A DNA stretch of 64,000 nt from Candidatus Saccharimonadales bacterium (GTDB taxonomy: Bacteria; Patescibacteriota; Saccharimonadia; Saccharimonadales; UBA4665), in assembly GCA_035479955.1 (NCBI GenBank), contig DATIIE010000015.1, positions 2,268 through 66,267 of the forward strand, in the 5' to 3' direction. Within the stretch, counting starts at the first letter, position 1. Every line of letters begins with the position of its first letter. Position numbers and translations under genes: made by a program. This document shows positions 15,310-30,741 of the stretch, in pieces. The notes under the pieces are model-generated. The model made no database searches, had not been told where the DNA came from, and saw nothing but the letters and a program-made list of their open reading frames with translations.

Positions 15310-17859
15310 TTAAATTTCGCCCCAGTCCTTGCCTGTTTTAACGTCTACAGCCAGTTTTACCGGCAAGTCGTACACGTGTTCCATGGTGTCTTTCAAAACT
15401 TCTGCTACCTTTTCGGCGTTTTCGGCGGGGCATTCTACCAGGATGCTGTCATGGATTTGCAGCAATTGCTCGCCCAGGCCGTCTAAGGCCTTCTCTACTT
15501 TGAGCATGGCCATTTTCATGAGGTCGGCTTCGGTGCCCTGGATGGGCATGTTTATGGCGGCACGCTTGGCGGCCTCACGCACAACCCAGTTACTGCTTTT
15601 CATGTCAGGCGTGGGGCGGCGGCGGCCGAAAATAGTCTCTACGTACCCCTGTTTGAGGGCGAGCTCGGCAGTGTGCTCCATGTATTTGCGCAGCGGGGCG
15701 CGCAGGGCAAAATAGCGTTCAATAAACTCTTTGGCTTCCATGATTGTCATGCCCGTGGCAACGCTTAAGCCGTGCGGGCTCATGCCATACAAAATGCCAA
15801 AGTTCACGGCTTTGGCGCGGCGGCGCATTTCTTTGTCTACTTGTTCTAATGGTACGCCGGCAACTTGGGCAGCAGTCGCGGTGTGGATGTCGATGTCTTT
15901 GTTAAAGTCTTCCAGCATCTGTTTATCGTCGGCCATGTACGCGGCCAGGCGCAGCTCGAACTGGCTGTAGTCGGCGCTGACAAACACATTGCCCTCGGCG
16001 GGTTTGAACGCGCCGCGGATAGCCTGCCCCAGCTCAGTGCGCGTGGGGATATTTTGCAAATTAGGGTCGTGCGAGCTTAACCGGCCAGTGGCTGCAACAT
16101 CTTGGGCATACGTGGTGTGCAGCTTGCCACCCGCGTCCACCAGCTTAGGCAGCGCATCTATGTACGTGCTCTTCAGCTTGGTGTACTCGCGGTATTCGGT
16201 AATCAGGTTGATGATAGGGTGCAGGCCGCGCAGTTTGTCCAGCTCGGCCGAGCCGGTGCTGTAGCCAGTCTTCCCTTTTTTTACACCCGTTGTTGGCAAA
16301 CCCAGTTTTTCGTACAAAACGGTGCCCAGTTGCGCCGGCGAACTGATGTTGAACTTGTCGCCGGCCTCTTTGTAGATTTTCTGCTCAATACCAACAATTT
16401 TGATCTCGAATTCGTCGCTCATTTGGCGCAAGTAGGCGGTATCCAGCAAAATGCCGCGGTGCTCCACGGTTGCCAGCAGCGGCACCATTGGGAAGTCCAG
16501 CCGGCGCGCCACTTTCTCTAGTGTGGGCGCTTTTTTGAACTCTTTTTGTTGTTCGTTATACAACTGCCAGGTAGCAGTGATTATTCGGCCGGGATCGTCT
16601 GCTGCAATGGTTTGGCCAATAAGGTCAGACAGCTCCAGCGAACGTTGCAAAGAGTTCAAAATAAAGGCGGAAAGGCGGGTATCGTGGGCCACTTGCTGGG
16701 GCGGCTCTATATTGGCGGCCAGCAAGGCGCGGAAAATTGCTTTCAGGTCGTGTCCGATAACCGGGCCCTGGAGCACACCTGCGTGCAGGTCGCTCAACTG
16801 CACGGCCGAGTACTCCCCTGGTTTAGCGCTCAGCCACAATGTGACCGCGTCCGGGCTCAGGGCAATCAGGCGCGGTTCATCGCCGGCGAACGCTTTTTCG
16901 CTAAACGGCACTTGCTTGGCTTCTTCCAATTGTTTGATATAGCCGGCAGCGTTCTCATCTGTTTCAGCTTCAACGCCGGCCTGGGCTTGGGCAGCCTCCA
17001 GCTGGCGCAGCAATGTGCGGAATTCCAGCTCGCGCACTTTGGCAATGAACGCCGGCGGTACACCCTCAGCTGGCAGCCGCATTTTGTCGAATTCCAACTC
17101 CAGCGGCGCATCGGTATACAACGTGACTAGCTTCTGGCCTAAGAACGCCATGTCGCGGTCTTTTTCCAGCTTGGCGCGGAGGTTCGGTTTTATATCAGGC
17201 AGGTGCTCATACACACCCTCTAATGTTTCATAGGTAGAAATGAGCTCCAGTGCGCTCTTTGGGCCCACTAAGTGTACGCCAGGGATGTTGTCGGAGGAGT
17301 CGCCCTGCAGCGCCTTTACGTCGGCCCACTGGTGCGGGCCAACGCCGTATTTCTCGCGAAATGCAGCTTCATTGAACAATTCAATTTCACTGAAGCCCTT
17401 GCGCGGGATGCACACGTGCGTGTGGCTGTTTACGGTTTGCAGCAGGTCGAAGTCGCCGCTTATCAGATACGTTTCAATGTCTTTGGCCTTGGCTTTCAGG
17501 GCAAGCGTTGCCATAATGTCGTCGGCTTCGTAATCGTCAAGCTCATATAAAGGCCAGCCCAGGCTTTTCAAGACGTCCTGCAAAATAGCTACTTGGTCGT
17601 AAAAATCTTCAGGGGCGGCTTTGCGGTTAGCCTTGTACTCGGGGTACAGCTCGCGCCTGCGGCGGATATTGGTATGGCGCTTGTCCCAGGCCACGCACAC
17701 GTAGTCTGGCTTAAAGCGCTTGATAACTTCCAGCGCCATAACGGCAAAGCCGTACACGCCGCCCGTGGGCTTGCCATCGCGGGTGCTTAAGTTGGGCATA
17801 GCGTAGTAGCCGCGGTACAGCACGCTTTTGCCGTCAATGATAACCAGTCGCTCACTCAT
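15310..17859 (-). CDS. polA: DNA polymerase I (5'-3' exonuclease + polymerase; proofreading domain degenerate)
   Basis: IIDGKSVLYRGYY, EADD, GDSSDNIPGV, TGRLSS.DPNLQNIP, DYSQFELR, R.AKAVNFGILYG, QIHDS. Confidence 0.98.
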   Translation of the reverse strand: MSERLVIIDGKSVLYRGYYAMPNLSTRDGKPTGGVYGFAVMALEVIKRFKPDYVCVAWDKRHTNIRRRRELYPEYKANRKAAPEDFYDQVAILQDVLKSLGWPLYELDDYEADDIMATLALKAKAKDIETYLISGDFDLLQTVNSHTHVCIPRKGFSEIELFNEAAFREKYGVGPHQWADVKALQGDSSDNIPGVHLVGPKSALELISTYETLEGVYEHLPDIKPNLRAKLEKDRDMAFLGQKLVTLYTDAPLELEFDKMRLPAEGVPPAFIAKVRELEFRTLLRQLEAAQAQAGVEAETDENAAGYIKQLEEAKQVPFSEKAFAGDEPRLIALSPDAVTLWLSAKPGEYSAVQLSDLHAGVLQGPVIGHDLKAIFRALLAANIEPPQQVAHDTRLSAFILNSLQRSLELSDLIGQTIAADDPGRIITATWQLYNEQQKEFKKAPTLEKVARRLDFPMVPLLATVEHRGILLDTAYLRQMSDEFEIKIVGIEQKIYKEAGDKFNISSPAQLGTVLYEKLGLPTTGVKKGKTGYSTGSAELDKLRGLHPIINLITEYREYTKLKSTYIDALPKLVDAGGKLHTTYAQDVAATGRLSSHDPNLQNIPTRTELGQAIRGAFKPAEGNVFVSADYSQFELRLAAYMADDKQMLEDFNKDIDIHTATAAQVAGVPLEQVDKEMRRRAKAVNFGILYGMSPHGLSVATGMTIMEAKEFIERYFALRAPLRKYMEHTAELALKQGYVETIFGRRRPTPDMKSSNWVVREAAKRAAINMPIQGTEADLMKMAMLKVEKALDGLGEQLLQIHDSILVECPAENAEKVAEVLKDTMEHVYDLPVKLAVDVKTGKDWGEI

Positions 17860-17897
17860 GCTAACAGTATAACCTCGGAGCTGGCGGATAGCGAACG

Positions 17898-20090
17898 CTA
17901 ATCCTCGAGGTAACCCTTTAAGTGCGCTGAGTTTACCGGCTTGCGGAGTTTTTCCATTGCCCGTGCTTCTATCTGGCGGATGCGTTCGCGGGTCACGCCG
18001 TACACCTGGCCAATTTCATCAAGCGTCCTGGGTATGCCATCAGTCAGCCCGAAACGCAAACGGATTACGCCGGCTTCCCGGTCACTCAATACGCCCAGCG
18101 TCTTTTCAAGGCCGTCCTGCAGCATGACAAACACTGCCTGGTTATGGTCTGCACCTTCCGCGTCAGTGTCACTTATAAAGTCGCCTAACTCAACGTCCCC
18201 GTCTTCGCCAACTTTTCTGTCCAAAGAAATAGGTTCGCGGGAATAGCCCATGATCTCCAAGATTTTATCGGGGGTGGTGTCCATTTCCATGGCAATCTCC
18301 TCGGGGGTGGCCTCACGCCCGAGCGTCCCTAAAAGCTCACGCTGGATCTTGCCCAATTTGTTGATTTGCTCAACCATGTGCACCGGGATGCGGATGGTGC
18401 GCGCCTGGTCGGCCATTGCCCGGCTAATAGATTGGCGGACCCACCAGGTGGCGTAGGTGCTGAACTTGTAACCTTTTTCGTAGTCGAATTTTTCAACCGC
18501 CCGGATCAAACCAGTGTTACCTTCCTGGATAAGGTCGAGGAATGCCATGCCACGGCCGGTGTACCGCTTAGCCACGCTCACAACCAGGCGCAGGTTCGCT
18601 TCCAGCATGTGGTCCTTAGCGCTTGCACCTGCGCGTTCCAAATATTGCAGGTCGCGTTTCAGCTGCGCACCACTAACACCTGTAAATTTTTCGCCGCTGT
18701 CTAATCGTTCGCGGGCAAACAGGCCCGCTTCAATAGTTTTGGCCAGCTCAACTTCCTCTGCGGCATTTAGCAATGGCGTCCTGCCAATAGTCTTAAGCCA
18801 AATTCCTACGCTATCCTGCGACATTGCGCGGCCGGTTTGAGGTTCGGCGTAGGCTTCATCGCCGATGTCTTCAGAAAAGCGGCCGGCGCGTTCTGCCAGC
18901 TCGCGGCGTTCGCGGCGGCGGTCTTCTGCGGTGCTGAAGGCGTCTTCTGCCACAGCCGCGGTCAGTTGGGCAGTCGCATCCTCAACGGTTAAGAGCACTT
19001 CGTCGGCTCCGGCTAAAAGTTCGGCGCCTGAGGGGCCATCAGAGGGTGGCGGTGCCTTTTTGGCTGGCACGGCTTTTTTAGCGGGCGTTGCCTTTGCCGC
19101 AGTCCCAGACGTTGCCGCTGTTTTCTTGGCCGGGGAAGCTTTTTTGACCGCTACATAACCAGCCGGGCCGGCAACTTTCTGTGTGGCAGGTGCCTTAACT
19201 GCCGTTTCCGGGCGCGGCGTAGCCACTTGGCGTACGTCCTGCATCTGCATAAAACCTATGAAAATATCTTCGAGGTGGGAGTGTAGTGTGCTGCGCAGTT
19301 CGGCGGCGCGCTCCGGGTAGGTGCCGATCATCTGGCGGAAGGAACGCATTTCCCTTCTGCCGGTAATACCCAGCAAGGAATCCATAAGCTGGAATGCTTC
19401 GCCCTGCTCATCCAGGCCATGTTGGTCGGCCCATTGCACATACCGGTCGCGGAAACGCGTCAGTATAAAAGTTAGGTCGTCGGAAGGCAAAATGCCGGGC
19501 GGCGCGTTGGTGTCGCCAGAAAAGTGGTGCAACAGCGCCTGCGTCTCGCGTGCCGAGCGTATGGTGTCATCGCGGTGAGGGGTAAGGTTATTTCCTATGA
19601 AACGGATGGCGCGGTGGGTGTCGTCGTTTGGATAAACCGCGTGCGCCATTAAATCTGCTGCCTGGCGGCGCATAAGTTCAGTTATGCCAGGCAGGTCGGG
19701 GTCGCGCACCGGCCCGCGGGTTACGGTATTTATCATTTGGCGCAGGCGGCCGCCTACCCTGCGGCGGGCGACGTTCAGTAGCTCGTATGACGCATGCTGG
19801 CCAGTGGCTGCAGCTGCGCCGGCCAATGTTTGCTCACTGGTGCGGCCGCTTAGCAGCCCCTGGATTACCAGAACACGGCGTTCGCTGACCACCTCTCTTG
19901 CAGCTACTGCACCCGCATGGTCATGGTTGGCGGCAGCCCAGGCGGCGTCATGCAGGGCCGCGCGGGTTGCTTCATCCGGATTCTCGAGTAAAGGAGCCAG
20001 GCGCGTCTCCAAAAGGCCGTTCTCTAAAATAGCAGCATATACGGGGTCGCCCAGCACCTCACCTGGCACACCTGGAGTTGTCTCAGACAT
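17898..20090 (-). CDS. Second group-1 sigma70 factor, actinobacterial HrdB/SigA-type core (17898-18815), fused to a novel 425-aa N-terminus
   Basis: Complete regions 1.2, 2, 3 and 4; [92 protein letters not shown]. Confidence 0.93.
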
Positions 20091-20118
20091 ATTCCTATTA
20101 GATTACCTGTCATGACCC

Positions 20119-20154
20119 ATTGTTGTAAACCTGCAAAAACAGTTTTACAACAAT
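20119..20154. promoter_or_regulatory. Palindromic operator-like site between the extra sigma gene and the P-type ATPase
   Basis: ATTGTTGTAAA-N14-TTTACAACAAT, perfect 11-bp arms. Confidence 0.55.
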
Positions 20155-20201
20155 ATTACCGAACGCGCCAAAACGTGAGCGTATTCGGCTATAATGCCTG
20201 T

Positions 20202-23021
20202 ATGGAACAAAAAACCCAGCTCCCGTATTACCGTGTTGACAGCTCGGAGGTACTGCGCGGCCTAAGCACTAGCCCCGACGGCTTATCTAGCGCCGAAGCC
20301 CGCGAGCGCCTGGCCAAAAATGGCCCGAACGAACTCCAGCGCACCAAGCGTGAACCGGGCATCGTTACCTTTTTGCGCCAATTCAAAAACCTGCTGCTGA
20401 TTTTGCTCATTATTAGCGCCCTGATTTCGCTGTATCTGCAGGACTACCGCACCGCCGTTATCCTCTTCTTTATTGCCGCGATAAACACTGTGGTTGGGTT
20501 CGTGCAGGAGCACAAGGCTGAGTCGCTCATGGCCAGCCTGGAGAAATTAACAGTGCCGCGCGCCAAGGTAGTGCGCGGCGGCAAGCTGGTGGAAATTGAC
20601 TCACCCTCCCTGGTTGTAGGCGACATTGTGTACGTAGAGGAGGGCGACTCAGTGCCCGCGGACTTGCGCGTCATAGACGAGCAGGAACTGAGCACCAACG
20701 ACTTCGCGCTCACCGGCGAAAGCTCACCGGCCCGCAAATTTGTGCATGCCATTTCCGGGGATGTGCCATTGGGCGGGCGCCACAACCTGCTGTTTATGGG
20801 CACTACCGTAGCCACGGGCAACGGCCACGGTGTGGTCGTAGGCACGGCCATGAACACCGAGCTGGGGCGCATTGCTAACCTCAGCCAAACCACTAAAAGC
20901 GACGCCAGCCCGCTGACGCGCGAGCTGAACAACCTCAGTAAACGCCTCACCCAGGGCGTGGCCATTTTGGCGCTGCTGCTCACCTGGATTGCGCTGGAAT
21001 CGCACCTGGGGCTGAAAGCGGCGCTGCTGTTTGCCATTAGTATTAGCGCCGCCATGATTCCTAACGGCCTGGCCGCCGAGGTTAGCATTACCCTTGCCCA
21101 AACCGCTGGCCGCATGGCGCGCGCCCGCGCGCTCGTCAAAAAACTATCGGCCGTGGAAACGCTGGGCGCCACCAACATTATTGCCACCGACAAAACCGGC
21201 ACACTCACCAAAAACGAAATGACTGTTGAGCACCTGCTGGTGGGCCGCACCGAGTATGGCGTAACCGGCACCGGCTACCAGCCGGACGGTGTTATTGTAG
21301 ATGCCGAGAACGAACCGCTTACCGGCCAGCAAATGGAAACCATTAAACTGTTTTTTGAAACTGGCGCCCACGCCAGCAACGCCCATGTAAACCCGCCAGA
21401 CGACGAACACGGCAGCTGGTACTGCGTGGGCGACCCCACTGAAGGCGCAGTGGTAACGCTGGCGCGCAAAGTTGGCATCGACACCGACAAGCTCAACACC
21501 GCCAACAAAGAAATTAAAGAGTTCCAGTTTGACTCCGCGCGCAAACGCATGAGCTCAGTACGCCGCTACAACCAAAGCCTCACCGTCTTCACCAAAGGCG
21601 CGCCCGAAAGCGTGCTGGAGCGCTGCACCCACCTATGGGACCACGGCCACGTCCGCCCGCTCACCGCCAAAGACCGCGAGTTTTTCAAAGCATATAACGA
21701 GCGCCAGGCTGGCGATGCCATGCGCAACCTGGGCTTTGCCTACGGCACCCTGCCCGCTGGCTCCAAACCCACAAAAATGACATTCGATGAGGTTGAGCAA
21801 AACCTGGTATTCCTGGGTATGGTCAGCATGGTTGACCCGCTGCGTGACGAAGTGCCGGCTGCCATGGTTGCCGCCCGCGGCGCCCACATTAAGGTGTCTA
21901 TCATCACCGGCGACTACCCTACTACTGCCCAGGCAATTGCCCGCAAAGCGCAGCTTGCTCCCGAGGGTGAAGACATTCAGATTGTGCTTGGCGAGGATTT
22001 GCCCGGCTTAAGCGATGCCCAAATCCTGCAGCTGGTACTACGAGGCGGCGTGGTATTTTCGCGCGTGGCACCCGAAGACAAACTGCGCATTGTTGAAATT
22101 TCCAAAGCAGCCGGCAAAGTTGTAGCCGTAACCGGCGACGGCATTAACGACGCGCCGGCACTGAAGCGCGCCGACATTGGCGTAGCCATGGGCCGCACAG
22201 GTACCGACGTTGCCAAAGAAGCCGCCGCCATTGTGCTGCTGGACGACAGCTTCAGCACGCTGGTGGGCGCGATTGAGCAAGGGCGGCTCACCTTCCGCAA
22301 TATTACCAAGGCCGCACGCTGCGCACTCACCGACAACGCCGGCGAACTGTTTGCGGTGCTTATAAGTTTGGTTGGGCAGGCAGTGTTCGACGTGCCAATT
22401 GCTATTTTGGCTGTACAGATTCTGGCCATCGACCTCATTGCCGAATTATTCCCGGTAACTGCCCTTGGGTGGGACCCGGCGCAGAACGATCTTATGCACG
22501 ACCATCCGCGCAACTTAAAGGACCACATCATTAACGCCCGCGCCGTTGGCGAGTTCGTAGTGTATGGCCTGCTGTCGGCCGGGCTTGCCTACAGCAACTT
22601 CCTGCTGTTCTTTGCCCGCCAGGGCCTAAGCCCAGTGGGCGCGTCAACAAGCACCTCCCTGTACGCCCAGGCCACTATCCTCACCTACGTCACGATTGTG
22701 CTGTGCCAGTTCATCAACCTGCTGTTTGTGCGCACCAGCCCCAGCGAATCCTTCTTCACCCGCTACCTGTGGAGCAACAAAAAGCTGCTCGTCGCTTTTG
22801 CAGCGTCGTTTGTGTGTATCTTGAACATCGTATACAACCCGTGGGTGCAGCCCTACTTTAACGCCCGCCCGCTAAGCGTTATGGACTGGTTATTTGCCTT
22901 AGCAGCGGCCGCTGTGTATTTGTTAGTGCGCCTGTTCCACCATTGGAGTTTAAAGCACAGCCGCAGCGCTGTGCTGGAATTACACCGCACAAAACAGCGT
23001 GCGGGTGCAAAAGCAGCTTAA
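20202..23021 (+). CDS. Cation-transporting P-type ATPase (type II, Ca2+/Mg2+-like)
   Basis: TGES, DKTGTLT, KGAPE, MVDP, TGD, GDGINDAPALK; start MEQKTQ at 20202, 6 nt after TATAAT. Confidence 0.96.
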   Translation: MEQKTQLPYYRVDSSEVLRGLSTSPDGLSSAEARERLAKNGPNELQRTKREPGIVTFLRQFKNLLLILLIISALISLYLQDYRTAVILFFIAAINTVVGFVQEHKAESLMASLEKLTVPRAKVVRGGKLVEIDSPSLVVGDIVYVEEGDSVPADLRVIDEQELSTNDFALTGESSPARKFVHAISGDVPLGGRHNLLFMGTTVATGNGHGVVVGTAMNTELGRIANLSQTTKSDASPLTRELNNLSKRLTQGVAILALLLTWIALESHLGLKAALLFAISISAAMIPNGLAAEVSITLAQTAGRMARARALVKKLSAVETLGATNIIATDKTGTLTKNEMTVEHLLVGRTEYGVTGTGYQPDGVIVDAENEPLTGQQMETIKLFFETGAHASNAHVNPPDDEHGSWYCVGDPTEGAVVTLARKVGIDTDKLNTANKEIKEFQFDSARKRMSSVRRYNQSLTVFTKGAPESVLERCTHLWDHGHVRPLTAKDREFFKAYNERQAGDAMRNLGFAYGTLPAGSKPTKMTFDEVEQNLVFLGMVSMVDPLRDEVPAAMVAARGAHIKVSIITGDYPTTAQAIARKAQLAPEGEDIQIVLGEDLPGLSDAQILQLVLRGGVVFSRVAPEDKLRIVEISKAAGKVVAVTGDGINDAPALKRADIGVAMGRTGTDVAKEAAAIVLLDDSFSTLVGAIEQGRLTFRNITKAARCALTDNAGELFAVLISLVGQAVFDVPIAILAVQILAIDLIAELFPVTALGWDPAQNDLMHDHPRNLKDHIINARAVGEFVVYGLLSAGLAYSNFLLFFARQGLSPVGASTSTSLYAQATILTYVTIVLCQFINLLFVRTSPSESFFTRYLWSNKKLLVAFAASFVCILNIVYNPWVQPYFNARPLSVMDWLFALAAAAVYLLVRLFHHWSLKHSRSAVLELHRTKQRAGAKAA

Positions 23022-26225: not shown

Positions 26226-27404
26226 ATGACAGCAACTGTCTTCGAAGCACCAGCCCAACAGCACCCCGACGCTCTCGACCCCAGTCAACTGCCCCTCACC
26301 GGCAATGGTATTACTGGTGGCCAAACCGTTGTTTACTCCGATACTGTCGCCGGCCGCCAACCAGTTAGGCAACTAGACGATTTCGAAAAAATCATGGCTG
26401 AAGCTGGCCACCTGCCCTCTTACGTTGTTTCGGCTGCTACCGCGCCCGCGGAGCGCACAAACGGTGGCCGCATATACACCTCAACCCATGCCGTTGAAAG
26501 TGCCAGGACCCGCGGGCCGGCTTGGCATGAATTTGTCGGCAGCAGTGCAACCGCACAGCATATCGCCCCAACCGAAAATGCTGCTACCGCGCGCGCAGAG
26601 ACTACTTCCCGCCCTCGCTGGCACGTTCGTGCCGGCCGCTTTATTACCAATGCCGCCCTGCGCATGTTTAGTATGGGCAGCGAAACAAATGGCACTGAAG
26701 CTGCAAGCTATGCCGGTGCCGCTCCCAACGATTACGTTGGGAGCCGCCGCCGCACAGACACCAGCGCCGCAGATGTTGCCTACGCCACTACAACCTCTTA
26801 CGTCACCCCGGCCAAAACAGCAACTGTCCTGCCTGCTGAGCCACAGCTGTTATACATTGGCGGCCACAACAGGCACGCCGAACCCCGTCACACTGCAGTC
26901 GCTGCAGAAACAGCCCTAGTGCCCGAAACAGTCGTACATGCCCCAGCCACACCCTCGCCCAAAGAGCCCGTAGCGCAAAAAACGCCCTCTACTGAACTGG
27001 TACACATCCCGCGCGCTGCTGAACAAAACATAGCCGGTGGCAAACCTCAAGACGCATTGCTGCAAGGATTGCAGGAAGCTGGCTACGACAGCCTAGAGGC
27101 CTTCAAAAACGCCGCTCGTTTCGCCCTCCCCGCAGACCGTATCGCGTTTTACCACACGCTGCGCCGCATTGTACGAGCAAAGGGCGCCGCCTGGCACACA
27201 GCCGCCAACCTCGAGGGCGACACAGAAGCGCAAGCCAAATTTACCCAGCTTACAACCATCGTTGACGGGCTTGATAAAGAACTGCGCCTCCGCCCCCAGC
27301 AAGAGTCAGCTGACGAGAAGGAACGCAAGCAAGCCGCAGGCACCCAGCCAGACATCGAGCGCATGCGTGAAATGGTTGCAGCCAGCCGCATGTTCCGCCG
27401 CTAG
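26226..27404 (+). CDS. Orphan protein, disordered T/A/P-rich middle, helical C-terminal domain
   Basis: 392-aa ORF divergent from the kinase gene, AT-rich upstream region. Confidence 0.8.
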   Translation: MTATVFEAPAQQHPDALDPSQLPLTGNGITGGQTVVYSDTVAGRQPVRQLDDFEKIMAEAGHLPSYVVSAATAPAERTNGGRIYTSTHAVESARTRGPAWHEFVGSSATAQHIAPTENAATARAETTSRPRWHVRAGRFITNAALRMFSMGSETNGTEAASYAGAAPNDYVGSRRRTDTSAADVAYATTTSYVTPAKTATVLPAEPQLLYIGGHNRHAEPRHTAVAAETALVPETVVHAPATPSPKEPVAQKTPSTELVHIPRAAEQNIAGGKPQDALLQGLQEAGYDSLEAFKNAARFALPADRIAFYHTLRRIVRAKGAAWHTAANLEGDTEAQAKFTQLTTIVDGLDKELRLRPQQESADEKERKQAAGTQPDIERMREMVAASRMFRR

Positions 27405-27810: not shown

Positions 27811-28977
27811 TCATTTAATGTAATCGTGCAGCTTACGGGCATCCTTGTGCTTGCGCAGCTTGGCCAGGGCCTTTGCCTCAATCTGGCGGATACGTTCGCG
27901 GGTTACGCTAAATTCCTGGCCCACTTCTTCCAACGTGTGCTGTTTGCCATCTTCCAGGCCGAAACGCAGCTTAATGATCTTCTGCTCGCGCTCAGTAAGC
28001 GCGGCCAGCATGTCTTTTACTTGCTCTTTCAGCAGCTGGTTAGTGGCAGATTCTTCCGGCGAAATGGTGTCTTCATCTTCAATAAAGTCAGCCAGAACAG
28101 ATTCTTCCTCGTCGTCGCGGATGCTGGCGTCCAAAGAGGAAATGTCCTGCTTAATCTTCATAATGTGCTCAACCTTGTCTACCTCAATCTCCATGGCGTT
28201 GGCGATTTCTTCATTGGTAGGCTCGCGGTTCAATTCCTGGGTCAGGCGGCGCTGGGTGCGCAGCAATTTGTTGATGGTTTCAACCATGTGCACGGGGATA
28301 CGGATGGTGCGCGCTTGGTCGGCAATGGCGCGGGTAATGGCCTGGCGGATCCACCAGGTGGCGTAGGTACTGAATTTAAAGCCCTTGTCCGGGTCAAACT
28401 TCTCTACCGCACGCAGCAAGCCGGTGTTGCCTTCTTGGATCAGGTCCAACAGGTCCAAACCGCGGCCAACGTAGCGCTTGGCAATCGAAACAACCAAACG
28501 CATGTTTGCTTCAGCCATTTTGTCTTTGGCGTCTTTGTCGCCGGCAACAACGCGCTGGGCCAGCGCCAGTTCTTCTTCGGCGCTGAGCAGCGGGATCTTA
28601 CCAATCTCGCGCAGGTACAGGCGCACGCTGTCGTCAGCGATGTCGTCCAGGTAGTGCTGGTCTTCGGTAATTACCTCTTCACCGTCTTCAACAGTCCATT
28701 CGTCGCTCAACTCAACTGGCTCTTCTGTTTCCAGAGGCGCAGCTGTTGTAACAACCTCTACGTTCATGTCGGCGAGCTCAGTATACAGCTTGTCGAGCAG
28801 CTCAGCGTTCTCAGGGGTTTCAGCAATAGCAGTGCTAATGTCACGCTGGTCAATCTTACCGGCCTTCTTCGCTTGCGCGACGAGGTCTTTTTTCACTTGC
28901 TCAAGGTCTACTGGCGCAGTGGCGGCAGCAGCCTTTGGTGCTGCGGGGGTCTTTGGCTTCTTTGGCATAGGCTTCAA
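27811..28977 (-). CDS. rpoD: Resident primary sigma factor RpoD
   Basis: Directly downstream of dnaG; region 1.1, [46 protein letters not shown]. Confidence 0.97.
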
Positions 28978-28983
28978 GCTCCT

Positions 28984-30741
28984 TTATGCTTTATGGGTTC
29001 GTAATAAGTTATCGAGTTTCGCGGCGGTCTCCAGCAGTTTTTGGGAGCGCGAGTCATCTGTTGTCGTATCCAGTTCGCGGGAAATCCGCTGTTTTTGCAT
29101 TTTTACGTAACGTTCTATCAATTGGGCCTGCAATCGAGTGGCTTCGTAATGAAGTTCCGTAATCTCGAGGTCTTGATAGAGCTCTTCAAACAATAATGAT
29201 AACATTTTACCATAATCCGCCAGTGGGCGCCATGCGTCATCTGCGGTGGGGCCTGCGGTGAAGTCCGGATGCTCGGCCAGGAACGTCAAAAGGTTGCGCG
29301 CCTGCTCTTCTACCAGCATGCCGGGCTTGAACGGTTCCAGGTAACGGCGCAGCTTGGGCTGCAGCAGCGCCAGCGACAATAAATGGTTCTCTGTCTTAAT
29401 CATTTCCGATGCGGCTTTGTCGGGCGCCACGTTCGGCGTCCTTTTCGTTTTTAGCCGCGGAGCAGGCGCATCAGGGTTGGCCAGCTTGTTTAGCAGCGCT
29501 TCCCGGCTCACGCCAATCAGCTCGGCCACACGGCCGATGTAGTGCTCCTGCTCAACCTGGTCGTCCAGGCCGCGCACAGTGTTCAAAATGATGTCACTGA
29601 ATTGCTTTTTACCTTGGGCGCTGTGTATGTCCAGTTCCGTTTGGTAGCGCTCAATCAGCCAGTCTAGGGCGTACTTCGGCTGCTGTATAATCTGTTGCCA
29701 TGTTGCCGGGTTTTGCTTAATAAGCTCGTCTGGGTCCTTGCCACTGGGGATAGTAATGATGCTGAGGCTAACGCCAACCTTGCTGGCAATGGGAATGGCG
29801 CGCTCGGTGGCGTTCAGGCCGGCTTTGTCGGCGTCAAAGCTCAGGCGGATGTCGCCGGTAAAGCGGCTCAGCGCCTTCAGGTGCTGCTCGGTGAGCGCTG
29901 TGCCTGCTGTTGCCACCACCTGCCGCACACCGGCCTGGTGGCTCATAATAACGTCCAGGTTGCCTTCAGCAACCACCACATACTTGCTTTTGCGGATCAT
30001 TTCCTTGGCCAGGTACAGCCCGTACACATGGCGTGACTTGTCATATAGCAGGGTTTGCGGCGTGTTGATATACTTTGGCGCCTCAGGGTCATCTTGCAGC
30101 AGGCGCGCAGTAAAACCTATAACACGCCCCTGCGGGTCCTGCAGGGGAATCATCAGCCGCCCGCGAAACATGTCGCCGGTGCCGCGGCTGCGCTGGGCAC
30201 TAAGCCCTGCACCTTTCACCTCTTTGTCGGTAAAGCCCTTTTTCCGCAGGAAATCCACAAGCGCACCCCCGGTGTTCGGGCTATACCCCAGGCGCCAGTC
30301 CAGTACCGTTTGCTTGGCGAATTGCCGCTTTTTAAACACGTAATTCAGCGCCAGTTCACTGCGGCTGAACTGTACCTGGTAGAACCGGGCTGCCAGCTCC
30401 AGTGCCTCGTGCAGGCGCTCCTTCTCTTTCGTGTTGCTGCGCTGGCCGCCGCCGGTGCGATATTGCTCTAAATCAACGCCTGCTTTACGGGCCAGCAGCT
30501 CCAAAGCACCCTTAAAGTCCAGGCCTTCCATCTCCATGACAAAACTGAACATATTGCCGCCCTTGCCACTGCTGAAGTCGTGCCAGATTTGCTTCTCCGG
30601 GCTGACCATAAAACTGGGCGTACGCTCGCTGCTGAACGGGCTCAATCCCTTAAAATTGCGCCCGGCGCGCTTCAATTCCACATACTGCGAGACAACATCC
30701 TCGATGTTTAACCGGCTTTTAATTTCCTCGACAGCATCCAT
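28984..30741 (-). CDS. dnaG: DNA primase
   Basis: LSPFSSERTPSF (zinc-finger Cys replaced), FRGRLMIP, KYINTPQT, AEGNLDV, FDADKAG, PSGKDPDE. Confidence 0.97.
   Translation of the reverse strand: MDAVEEIKSRLNIEDVVSQYVELKRAGRNFKGLSPFSSERTPSFMVSPEKQIWHDFSSGKGGNMFSFVMEMEGLDFKGALELLARKAGVDLEQYRTGGGQRSNTKEKERLHEALELAARFYQVQFSRSELALNYVFKKRQFAKQTVLDWRLGYSPNTGGALVDFLRKKGFTDKEVKGAGLSAQRSRGTGDMFRGRLMIPLQDPQGRVIGFTARLLQDDPEAPKYINTPQTLLYDKSRHVYGLYLAKEMIRKSKYVVVAEGNLDVIMSHQAGVRQVVATAGTALTEQHLKALSRFTGDIRLSFDADKAGLNATERAIPIASKVGVSLSIITIPSGKDPDELIKQNPATWQQIIQQPKYALDWLIERYQTELDIHSAQGKKQFSDIILNTVRGLDDQVEQEHYIGRVAELIGVSREALLNKLANPDAPAPRLKTKRTPNVAPDKAASEMIKTENHLLSLALLQPKLRRYLEPFKPGMLVEEQARNLLTFLAEHPDFTAGPTADDAWRPLADYGKMLSLLFEELYQDLEITELHYEATRLQAQLIERYVKMQKQRISRELDTTTDDSRSQKLLETAAKLDNLLRTHKA

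What the first reader, a model, noticed from the sequence alone, without database searches (positions are those of the whole stretch)
17898..18815. A host-type primary sigma factor: actinobacterial HrdB/SigA core in a Saccharibacteria genome
Seen: the window holds two complete group-1 sigmas. The resident RpoD (27811, behind dnaG) has a short [13 protein letters not shown] junction and [19 protein letters not shown]. The second copy instead has [11 protein letters not shown]..(non-conserved region)..[50 protein letters not shown] and [29 protein letters not shown], which I recognise as the Streptomyces HrdB / Mycobacterium SigA signature. It is preceded by a KKAxPAKK-rich linker like the actinobacterial SigA N-terminus. 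Its codons (TTA, GTA, TCA, AAA) are not high-GC, so it is ameliorated rather than a contaminant. Established: the actinobacteria-specific activator RbpA docks on sigma domain 2, including this non-conserved region. Inference: keeping that surface makes most sense if the protein works on host RNA polymerase, as an exported sigma or dominant-negative mimic that redirects host transcription. I know of no described example from a bacterial epibiont.
Basis: partly seen in the sequence, partly recalled or inferred. Interest (0 to 1): 0.92.

Follow-up and report, generated by a model that had tools for sequence, protein, structure and literature searches.

The report
Actinobacteria-derived extra sigma factor in Saccharimonadales
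A soil Saccharimonadales (TM7) genome carries, beside its own RpoD, a 730-residue second sigma factor whose core descends from an actinobacterial SigA and which has gained an N-terminal domain with no detectable relatives; it looks like a long-resident alternative sigma of the epibiont itself, not a weapon sent into the host.

Summary
The interpretation does not.

**What is there**
- The ORF is larger than reported: 17898-20090 (-), 730 aa.
- It has four parts: an all-helical N-domain with no match in any library searched (aa ~15-285), a K/A/P-rich linker, an acidic stretch, and a complete sigma-70 core (regions 1.2, a 31-aa NCR, 2, 3, 4).

**Origin of the core**
- It is 69-71% identical to Mycobacteriales, Pseudonocardiales and Micromonosporales SigA, against 47-56% to the resident RpoD.
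- It nests inside class Actinomycetes in ML trees (100/100 and 95/99).
- An AU test rejects a duplication of the Saccharimonadales RpoD (p=0.02).

**Not a recent or private gain**
- Fast-evolving positional orthologues lie between polA and a P-type ATPase, 5-15 kb from rpoD-dnaG, in at least 10 genomes of the genus and family. They are 36-64% identical to each other.
- GC3 matches neighbouring genes.
- Independent contigs span both junctions.

**Against a host-directed role**
- The genome has no rbpA.
- The NCR is only 16-35% conserved.
- 36% of Actinomycetes-specific near-invariant residues are replaced.
- There is no signal peptide.
- The gene sits 38 nt upstream of polA.
- The same N-domain is also fused to an ECF-type sigma.

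**Verdict**
It is a domesticated, group-2-like alternative sigma for the epibiont's own RNA polymerase. An exported host-directed sigma is not excluded but has no support (~5%).

The parts
17898..20090 (-). Whole ORF of the extra sigma factor (730 aa, P0001), stop codon included
   Evidence: full-length relatives with the same architecture
19236..20048 (-). N-terminal all-alpha domain (aa ~15-285) with no match in any library searched. Conserved motifs include NLx[14 protein letters not shown], RYxQW, LMDxLL and SFRQI
   Evidence: AF2 pLDDT 89.4, pTM 0.86, 13 helices. No Pfam, PDB-sequence or Foldseek match. About 13 significant cluster representatives (E<=1e-10) among 1.84 billion proteins. 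Found in 3 of 401 genomes sampled from the order
19050..19205 (-). Lys/Ala/Pro-rich basic linker (aa ~296-347), like the N-terminal tail of actinobacterial SigA
   Evidence: the NF004560 model aligns from aa 302; present in all fusion-family members
18816..19049 (-). Acidic segment (aa ~348-425) before region 1.2. It occupies the place of region 1.1, but Pfam does not detect region 1.1 here
18714..18815 (-). Sigma region 1.2 (aa 426-459)
   Evidence: Pfam PF00140, E 7e-12; 71% identical to Mycobacteriales SigA
18621..18713 (-). 31-aa non-conserved region (NCR) between regions 1.2 and 2.1. It has the length of the actinobacterial NCR and is absent from the resident RpoD
   Evidence: only 16-35% identical to actinobacterial SigA
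18396..18620 (-). Sigma region 2 (aa 491-565): core binding and -10 recognition
   Evidence: Pfam PF04542. 89% identical to Mycobacteriales SigA against 79% to the resident RpoD. The EGNTGL motif shares its Thr with the resident RpoD
18144..18371 (-). Sigma region 3 (aa 574-649)
   Evidence: Pfam PF04539; 65% against 41%
17940..18098 (-). Sigma region 4 (aa 665-717): -35 recognition helix TRERIRQIE intact
   Evidence: Pfam PF04545; 81% against 62%
27811..28977 (-). Resident housekeeping RpoD (388 aa), downstream of dnaG (28984-30741)
   Evidence: mean 97% identity (min 93%) over the core among the 11 residents of the genus and family
15310..17859 (-). polA, co-directional, starting 38 nt after the sigma stop codon. 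This is the conserved downstream neighbour and probably shares an operon
20112..23021 (+). Divergently transcribed P-type ATPase, the conserved upstream neighbour. The true start is probably the Met at 20202

Best explanation
The gene encodes a domesticated alternative sigma factor, principal-like and functionally of the group-2 kind, that serves the Saccharimonadales cell's own RNA polymerase.

**Inferred history**
- An ancestor of this Saccharimonadales family acquired a sigA-type gene from a member of class Actinomycetes, near the Mycobacteriales/Pseudonocardiales/Micromonosporales group. This is the phylum that supplies the known hosts of Saccharibacteria.
- The gene settled between polA and a P-type ATPase, close to rpoD-dnaG, and was ameliorated.
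- It then duplicated in some lineages and was lost in others.
- It evolved roughly an order of magnitude faster than either the donor's SigA or the resident RpoD.
- In part of the family an all-helical ~270-aa domain was fused in front of the SigA-type basic tail.

**Inferred mechanism**
P0001 keeps intact core-binding and -10/-35 recognition determinants. It should therefore form a holoenzyme with the resident core and read consensus-like promoters in competition with RpoD. The N-domain would act as a cis-regulatory module (autoinhibition, partner binding or signal sensing) in the place where region 1.1 normally sits.

**Shown:** ancestry, synteny, amelioration, architecture, rate and the absence of library matches for the N-domain.
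**Inferred:** use of the cell's own core polymerase and the regulatory role of the N-domain.
For: **Ancestry**
- The top 120 hits are all actinobacterial SigA.
- Careful ML tree: the extra sigmas lie inside a 100/100 clade with class-Actinomycetes SigA/SigB, and inside a 95/99 clade with Mycobacteriales, Pseudonocardiales, Micromonosporales and Glycomycetales.
- AU test of extras plus resident RpoD as one clade: dlnL 49.4, p=0.0196.
- 45 of 70 diagnostic positions carry the Actino state, against 10 with the resident state.

**Long residence and vertical descent**
- The order polA, extra sigma(s), ATPase ... rpoD-dnaG is conserved in G003, G007, G008, G012, G021 (genus) and G024 (family). G014 and G032 share part of it, and G018 has the extra sigma beside rpoD-dnaG.
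- Monophyly of 8 extra sigmas is not rejected (p=0.41).
- GC3 of each copy tracks its own genome.
- Fusion proteins from other assemblies have longest contigs of the same length as those of Saccharimonadales-type RpoDs, up to 1.2 Mb.

**Endogenous role**
- The gene lies 38 nt upstream of polA, co-directional, with an AGGA before the start codon.
- Region 2.2 (DLIQEGN) and the recognition residues (WWx[11 protein letters not shown]) are intact.
- The same N-domain is fused to an ECF-type sigma in P0135, as expected of a sigma-regulating module.
- 10 of the 25 departures from the Actino state go to the resident RpoD's state, including Thr526 in the core-binding motif.

**Accessory rather than housekeeping**
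- Present in 11 of the 37 family genomes sampled.
- Extra sigmas are 36-64% identical to each other, against 97% for resident RpoDs.
Against: - No expression or biochemical data. Only DNA runs from soil were found.
- The donor clade is resolved only moderately. Long branches pull the extra sigmas towards actinobacterial SigB-type sequences.
- With P0001 alone, the AU test against a position next to the resident RpoD is borderline (p=0.055).
- Taxon sampling outside Actinomycetota and Saccharimonadales is a single E. coli sequence.
- Rapid divergence is also what an arms-race protein would show.
- The N-domain's function is entirely inferred.
Confidence: 0.7

Rival explanations
1. Host-directed effector. 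The sigma is exported into the actinobacterial host and hijacks or poisons host RNA polymerase as a SigA mimic.
For: - Actinobacterial ancestry.
- Saccharibacteria have a host range restricted to Actinobacteria (PMC11659515).
- Fast, arms-race-like divergence.
- Intact promoter-recognition residues.
Against: - No Sec or Tat-like N-terminus.
- Located in a housekeeping neighbourhood and probably co-transcribed with polA.
- The NCR is 16-35% conserved, and 36% of Actinomycetes-specific near-invariant residues are lost, including the C-terminal tail.
- Several family members have diverged -35 recognition helices.
- The N-domain is also found on an ECF-type sigma.
- No secretion or effector genes are adjacent, and there are no PADLOC defence-system hits in the neighbouring genes.
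Confidence: 0.05
2. An ancient duplicate of the Saccharimonadales (CPR) RpoD that resembles actinobacterial SigA by convergence or by retaining ancestral characters.
For: - It lies near rpoD.
- Other Saccharimonadales families have tandem sigma paralogues beside rpoD that cluster near the resident clade.
- The AU test with P0001 alone gives p=0.055.
Against: - AU test with 8 extra sigmas: p=0.0196.
- 100/100 and 95/99 nesting inside class Actinomycetes.
- It shares the NCR insertion, the basic tail and the C-terminal YLD ending with actinobacterial SigA.
- 45 of 70 diagnostic positions are of the Actino type against 10 of the resident type.
Confidence: 0.04
3. A fresh, independent re-acquisition in this genome. 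A new actinobacterial sigA replaced an older paralogue at the same site, which would explain why P0001 is closer to Actinobacteria (69%) than to its positional orthologues (36-59%).
For: The identity pattern and the shortest branch among the extra sigmas.
Against: - P0001 shares the N-domain and linker architecture with G003, G008 and G021 and clusters with the fusion proteins P0123, P0125 and P0131.
- It is fully ameliorated.
- Its branch is still 0.6-1.0 substitutions per site, against 0.02-0.1 for SigA orthologues.
- Monophyly is not rejected.
Confidence: 0.06
4. Assembly chimera or contaminating actinobacterial DNA in the bin.
For: The genome is a metagenome-assembled genome of 133 contigs.
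Against: - Logan contigs of run X1 span both junctions (17806-18083 and 18384-20422) at an even depth of 8-12.
- The same gene order is found in eight other genomes, including closed contigs.
- GC3 matches the neighbouring genes.
Confidence: 0.01
5. A decaying, functionless relic of an old transfer.
For: Patchy distribution and very fast evolution.
Against: - Open reading frames of 380-780 aa are intact in every carrier.
- 88% of universally conserved sigma positions are kept.
- The N-domain has invariant residues and a confident fold.
- Tandem duplicates are retained.
Confidence: 0.05

Closest known systems
Actinobacterial principal sigma SigA / HrdB (Mycobacterium, Streptomyces; NCBIfam PRK05901.1 models)
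   Same: - Regions 1.2-4.2 are 64-71% identical.
- A short NCR of about 30 aa.
- A Lys/Ala/Pro-rich N-terminal tail followed by an acidic stretch.
- A YLD-type C-terminus.
- It nests inside the class in trees.
   Different: - It scores below the curated equivalog cut-offs (533 against 711, and 508 against 582).
- 39 of 207 class-invariant positions are changed.
- It carries an extra 300-aa N-domain.
- It sits in a genome without RbpA or CarD.
- It is patchy and fast-evolving, so it is not the housekeeping sigma.
Group-2 (principal-like, non-essential) sigma factors such as mycobacterial SigB, Streptomyces HrdA/C/D and RpoS
   Same: - A full set of regions 1.2-4 with consensus-type recognition residues.
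- It coexists with a housekeeping sigma.
- Dispensable across relatives.
- No detectable region 1.1.
   Different: - It did not arise by duplication within the lineage but by transfer across phyla.
- It is only 56% identical to actinobacterial SigB-type proteins.
- It carries a large structured N-terminal domain.
ECF sigma factors with fused regulatory extensions (e.g. the ECF41 and ECF42 types; my own knowledge)
   Same: The idea of a sigma regulated in cis by a fused domain instead of a separate anti-sigma. The same N-domain is in fact found on an ECF-type sigma (P0135).
   Different: The extension here is N-terminal, sits on a group-1-derived sigma, and has no sequence or fold match to known extensions.
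MzaA, the sigma-70 family protein of the MZA anti-phage system
   Same: Similar total length (~726 aa) with the sigma domains at the C-terminus.
   Different: Only the sigma part matches (aa 491-729). The score is 322 bits against a cut-off of 800, and no Mza partner genes or other defence genes lie nearby.

Membership tests
Sigma-70 family, RpoD/SigA-type (groups 1-2) | Conserved regions 1.2, 2, 3 and 4 in order | tested here: met
   Pfam PF00140, PF04542, PF04539 and PF04545, all above gathering scores
Sigma-70 family, RpoD/SigA-type (groups 1-2) | Core-binding motif in region 2.2 and the -10/-35 recognition residues (WWxRQ in 2.4; RERIRQ in 4.2) | tested here: met
   [19 protein letters not shown] and [10 protein letters not shown] are present. 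This is sequence-level evidence only
Group 1 (housekeeping) sigma | Region 1.1 present | tested here: not met
   PF03979 is found in the resident RpoD but not in P0001
Group 1 (housekeeping) sigma | Universally present and slowly evolving within the lineage | tested here: not met
   Present in 11 of 37 family genomes. Copies are 36-64% identical, against 97% for the resident RpoD
Actinobacterial SigA/HrdB equivalog (NCBIfam NF004560 / NF004561) | Score above the curated equivalog cut-off | tested here: not met
   533.4 against 711, and 508.5 against 582
Actinobacterial SigA/HrdB lineage (by descent) | Branches inside class Actinomycetes in a phylogeny of regions 1.2-4.2 | tested here: met
   100/100 and 95/99 clades; AU rejection of the alternative, p=0.0196
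RbpA-dependent actinobacterial sigma | RbpA partner encoded in the genome | tested here: not met
   No PF13397 match in the own genome; the Corynebacterium control is positive
RbpA-dependent actinobacterial sigma | Conservation of the NCR part of the RbpA-SID contact surface (NCR, 1.2 and 2.3; PMC7403470) | tested here: inconclusive
   The NCR is 16-35% identical while regions 1.2 and 2 are 71% and 89%. The contact residues themselves could not be looked up
MzaA (MZA defence system) | Full-length match and Mza partner genes nearby | tested here: not met
   The match covers only aa 491-729, and the neighbouring genes have no PADLOC hits
Secreted or translocated effector | Sec or Tat signal, or linkage to a secretion system | tested here: not met
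   The N-terminus [16 protein letters not shown] has no hydrophobic or twin-arginine signal by inspection. The neighbours are polA and a P-type ATPase. Signal-independent routes cannot be tested with these tools

The most novel reading that the evidence does not exclude
The family is a host-mimicking sigma. After contact-dependent transfer into the actinobacterial host it assembles with host core RNA polymerase, and its N-domain targets or regulates that activity. The fast divergence would then reflect an arms race with host transcription factors.

A milder variant is that Saccharimonadales imported a small actinobacterial transcription kit, a SigA-like sigma plus WhiB-like proteins, to tune their own transcription to host-type redox or NO signals.
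Probability: 0.05. Interest if true: 0.95.

Novelty: new variant of a known kind. Interest (0 to 1): 0.5.

Why it matters
Principal-type sigma factors are core informational genes and are seldom seen to cross phyla. Here one moved from the host phylum into an obligate epibiont lineage. It was kept for a long time next to the epibiont's own rpoD, multiplied, diverged very fast and acquired a domain with no detectable relatives in the libraries searched.

- **Host inference.** It gives a concrete genomic footprint of host association. The donor lies near Mycobacteriales, Pseudonocardiales and Micromonosporales, which can guide host prediction for uncultured soil Saccharimonadales.
- **Regulation.** It offers a handle on how reduced-genome epibionts, which have very few regulators, control transcription.
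- **New domain.** The N-domain is a confidently folded helical module, restricted to sigma factors, with no relatives found.
- **Broader pattern.** WhiB-like genes are widespread in the same order. This suggests that more than one actinobacterial transcription component has been imported.

Tried and rejected
- **Function of the N-domain.** Pfam, PDB sequence profiles (best hit a FixJ LuxR-type region at E=0.29, not significant), Foldseek against PDB and against BFVD all found nothing. The sigma4/LuxR-like 'echoes' seen by eye could not be confirmed.
- **MzaA / defence system.** Rejected.
- **RbpA and CarD partners.** Absent.
- **WhiB-like genes tied to the extra sigma.** They occur in 7 of 11 carriers and 9 of 26 non-carriers in the family. 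There is no clear link.
- **First trees.** The trees were dominated by long branches. A single-sequence AU test was borderline (p=0.055). Adding closer fusion-family members broke the branch and gave decisive support.
- **The search for related loci on genomes.** It returned mostly Microbacteriaceae because of pattern bias. I used the hits only as named references.
- **RbpA-sigma contact residues.** The paper (PMC4466734) is not held.
- **Literature.** Searches for sigma factor or WhiB in Saccharibacteria found nothing relevant.
- **Full-length structure prediction.** Not run, because no inter-domain confidence is returned.
- **dN/dS.** Not computed, because the copies are saturated.
Full report
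**1. The observation**

The minus-strand ORF that contains the reported interval runs from 20090 to 17898 and encodes 730 residues. The reported coordinates (17898-18815) are exactly regions 1.2 to 4.2 plus the stop codon. Pfam finds sigma-70 regions 1.2 (aa 426-459), 2 (496-565), 3 (574-649) and 4 (665-717). No region 1.1 is found.

The resident RpoD (27811-28977, minus strand, 388 aa, directly after dnaG) has all five regions. The two proteins are 47% identical, and the second copy has a 31-residue insertion between regions 1.2 and 2.1 that the resident lacks.

Against 5.8 billion proteins, the best 120 hits of the second copy are all actinobacterial SigA proteins. They include Actinoplanes, Rhodococcus, Gordonia, Nocardia, Kutzneria and Glycomyces. 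Identity is 69% over the C-terminal 42% of the query, with E about 1e-135. The best NCBIfam models are the actinobacterial PRK05901.1 equivalogs, though below their cut-offs. They align from residue 302, so they also cover the Lys/Ala/Pro-rich tail and the acidic stretch.

**2. The organism and the integrity of the locus**

The genome is 1.18 Mb in 133 contigs and 97% complete. Close relatives of its resident RpoD (86-99% identical) are named Candidatus Saccharimonadales or Patescibacteria. The sequence occurs in soil metagenome runs.

Logan contigs of run X1 span the polA-sigma junction (17806-18083) and the junction from the sigma N-terminus into the ATPase gene (18384-20422). Their depth is an even 8-12. 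Breaks occur only in the universally conserved region 2.

GC3 of the gene is 0.61. Neighbouring genes range from 0.57 to 0.70, and the three high-GC actinobacterial sigA cores sampled from 0.83 to 0.96 (Trueperella is 0.52). In relatives, each copy tracks its own genome. Contamination and chimerism are excluded.

**3. It is one member of a syntenic family**

A search of 60 relatives shows that every complete genome has the resident RpoD, which is about 57% identical to the query core. Eleven genomes of the family also carry one or two extra copies. These are G000, G003, G006, G007, G008, G012, G014, G018 and G021 in the genus, and G024 and G032 in other genera of the family.

The extra copies lie in the same place. 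The order polA, extra sigma(s), divergently transcribed P-type ATPase, polyprenyl synthase, rpoD-dnaG is seen in six of these genomes, and three more show part of it.

Four of these copies share the whole architecture of P0001, with 36-50% identity over the full length. They are G003 (687 aa), G008 (736 and 757 aa) and G021 (776 aa). The others are 383-452 aa and lack the N-domain.

The extra sigmas are 36-64% identical to each other over the core. Resident RpoDs average 97% and class-Actinomycetes SigA 84%. P0001 is therefore closer to actinobacterial SigA than to its own positional orthologues because it is the least diverged member of a fast-evolving family. It is not closer because it is new.

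**4. Phylogeny**

I assembled regions 1.2-4.2 from the following sources:
- named actinobacterial SigA;
- an even sample of 70 Actinomycetota genomes, including second (SigB-type) copies;
- resident Saccharimonadales RpoDs;
- the extra copies;
- E. coli RpoD.

A quick tree put all extra sigmas inside a 100%-supported clade of class-Actinomycetes SigA/SigB, apart from the resident RpoD clade.

A careful tree with many long-branched extra sigmas gave weaker support (81/77). An AU test of P0001 alone with the resident clade was borderline (p=0.055).

I then added the closer fusion-family proteins P0123, P0125 and P0131 and dropped the longest branches. The resulting careful tree (LG+C20 PMSF) places the eight extra sigmas as follows:
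- inside a 100/100 clade with class-Actinomycetes SigA/SigB, on a stem of 0.68;
- inside a 95/99 clade with Mycobacteriales, Pseudonocardiales, Micromonosporales and Glycomycetales, which excludes the group of Propionibacteriales, Actinomycetaceae, Microbacteriaceae and three unnamed large (7.5-9.2 Mb, probably Streptomyces-like) genomes.

Holding the extra sigmas and the resident RpoDs together costs 49.4 log-likelihood units (p-AU 0.0196). Holding the eight extra sigmas together costs 2.9 units (p 0.41).

Of 70 positions that are conserved within, and differ between, Actinomycetes SigA and the resident RpoDs, P0001 has the Actino state at 45, the resident state at 10 and another residue at 15.

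The attraction of the extra sigmas to SigB-type sequences is probably a long-branch effect, because P0001 is 56% identical to those and 69% to SigA.

Extra sigma paralogues in other Saccharimonadales families cluster elsewhere and are a different matter.

Conclusion: one old transfer from class Actinomycetes into this family, followed by vertical descent, duplication and loss.

**5. The N-terminal domain**

Residues 1-300 have no Pfam family and no PDB sequence relative. An exhaustive phmmer search of 1.84 billion cluster representatives finds about 13 significant relatives (E<=1e-10) besides the query itself. All are 494-776 aa, and all those read are the same kind of fusion.

One weaker hit (P0135, E 2.7e-4) carries the domain on an ECF-type sigma (regions 2 and 4 only). 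It shares the HF.D..APP, RY, LM..LL and S.R..L motifs in the alignment.

Several of these proteins have longest contigs of the same length (up to 1.2 Mb) as Saccharimonadales-type RpoDs, so they probably share contigs.

With a 14-sequence alignment, AlphaFold2 gives a confident 13-helix model (pLDDT 89.4, pTM 0.86). The model has no Foldseek match in the PDB or in BFVD.

In an even sample of 401 genomes of the order, the domain occurs in 3 genomes from 2 of 256 genera. It is a rare module found only on sigma factors, with no detectable homologues.

**6. Function**

P0001 keeps the region 2.2 core-binding motif and the -10 and -35 recognition residues, which are the same as in the resident RpoD. 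It should therefore bind core polymerase and read consensus-type promoters.

Several observations speak for an endogenous role:
- The gene lies 38 nt upstream of polA on the same strand, has an AGGA before its start codon, and sits in a conserved housekeeping neighbourhood.
- The N-domain is shared with an ECF sigma.
- Ten of its 25 departures from the Actino state go to the resident RpoD's residue, including Thr526 in EGNTGL. This last point is suggestive only.

Several observations speak against a role on host RNA polymerase:
- The genome has no rbpA and no CarD-type domain.
- RbpA's SID contacts the NCR and regions 1.2 and 2.3 (PMC7403470), yet the NCR is only 16-35% identical to SigA.
- Of 64 positions that are near-invariant in Actinomycetes SigA but different in the resident RpoD, 23 (36%) are replaced, against 12% of universally conserved positions.
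- The replaced positions include the C-terminal HPSRSQ tail. From memory, that tail is part of the WhiB-binding surface of sigma-A region 4.
- There is no signal peptide and no secretion or defence context.
- Other family members have divergent -35 recognition helices. This fits diversifying alternative sigmas better than mimics of a single host protein.

Export by an unrecognised route cannot be excluded, and I give it about 5%.

**7. Comparison and novelty**

By descent this is an actinobacterial SigA. By behaviour it resembles a group-2, principal-like alternative sigma. By architecture it is a new variant, because of the fused N-domain. It fails the equivalog cut-offs for SigA and the criteria for a housekeeping sigma. 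It is not MzaA.

I found no description of sigma factor transfer into Saccharibacteria in the held literature.

Interest is moderate. The transfer of a principal-type sigma from the host phylum into an epibiont lineage, its rapid diversification and the unmatched domain are all notable. The spectacular reading of an exported sigma has no support.

**8. Seen in passing**

WhiB-like domains, usually regarded as confined to Actinobacteria and their phages (my own knowledge), occur twice in this genome, on a 540-aa and a 176-aa protein. They are found in 33 of 61 Saccharimonadales relatives and are not clearly linked to the extra sigma.

Noticed in passing
outside the window: L182 169..1791 (+) = G000:C29, and L183 48..578 (+) = G000:C123: Two proteins with WhiB-like (Wbl) domains above the Pfam cut-off: a 540-aa protein with a C-terminal Wbl domain and a 176-aa protein. 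Wbl genes occur in 33 of 61 Saccharimonadales relatives (22 of 39 genera). The family is usually regarded as confined to Actinobacteria and their phages. Within the family they are not clearly linked to the extra sigma (7 of 11 carriers against 9 of 26 non-carriers)..
   Followed up: partly
protein P0135 (532 aa, JGI metagenome; not in the window): The same N-terminal domain appears fused to an ECF-type sigma (regions 2 and 4 only). The phmmer match is weak (E 2.7e-4, 24% identity), but the conserved motifs line up. The domain therefore looks like a portable module that attaches to sigma factors.
   Followed up: partly
window 18513-18515 (codon for Thr526, motif EGNTGL): In the region 2.2 core-binding motif, P0001 has Thr like the resident Saccharimonadales RpoD. 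The 31 Actinomycetes SigA sequences have Leu (at most one exception). Ten of its 25 departures from the Actino consensus match the resident RpoD. This may be adaptation to the resident core polymerase or a reversion to the general consensus.
   Followed up: partly
L168 (G056:C12), L169 (G052:C36), L171 (G049:C5), L173 (G039:C1): Other Saccharimonadales families carry two or three tandem, highly divergent sigma-70 paralogues next to rpoD. They do not group with the Actino-derived family. Their origin is unresolved.
   Followed up: partly
window 17860-17897: Only 38 nt separate the sigma stop codon from the polA start codon on the same strand. The gap is 10-29 nt in the three relatives checked, so the extra sigma is probably co-transcribed with polA.
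   Followed up: partly
L027 5309..6538 (+) (G044:C10): The only sigma-70 of genome G044, in another family of the order, clusters with the resident RpoDs. Yet its BLAST alignment to P0001 spans the NCR site (318 columns against 307, gaps included, for other resident RpoDs), which suggests an insertion there.
   Followed up: no
window 26226-27404 (+): A 392-aa Ala/Pro/Thr-rich orphan lies between the polyprenyl synthase block and rpoD. Its one positional counterpart found (G008) is only 28% identical, although the flanking genes are 60-80% identical.
   Followed up: no
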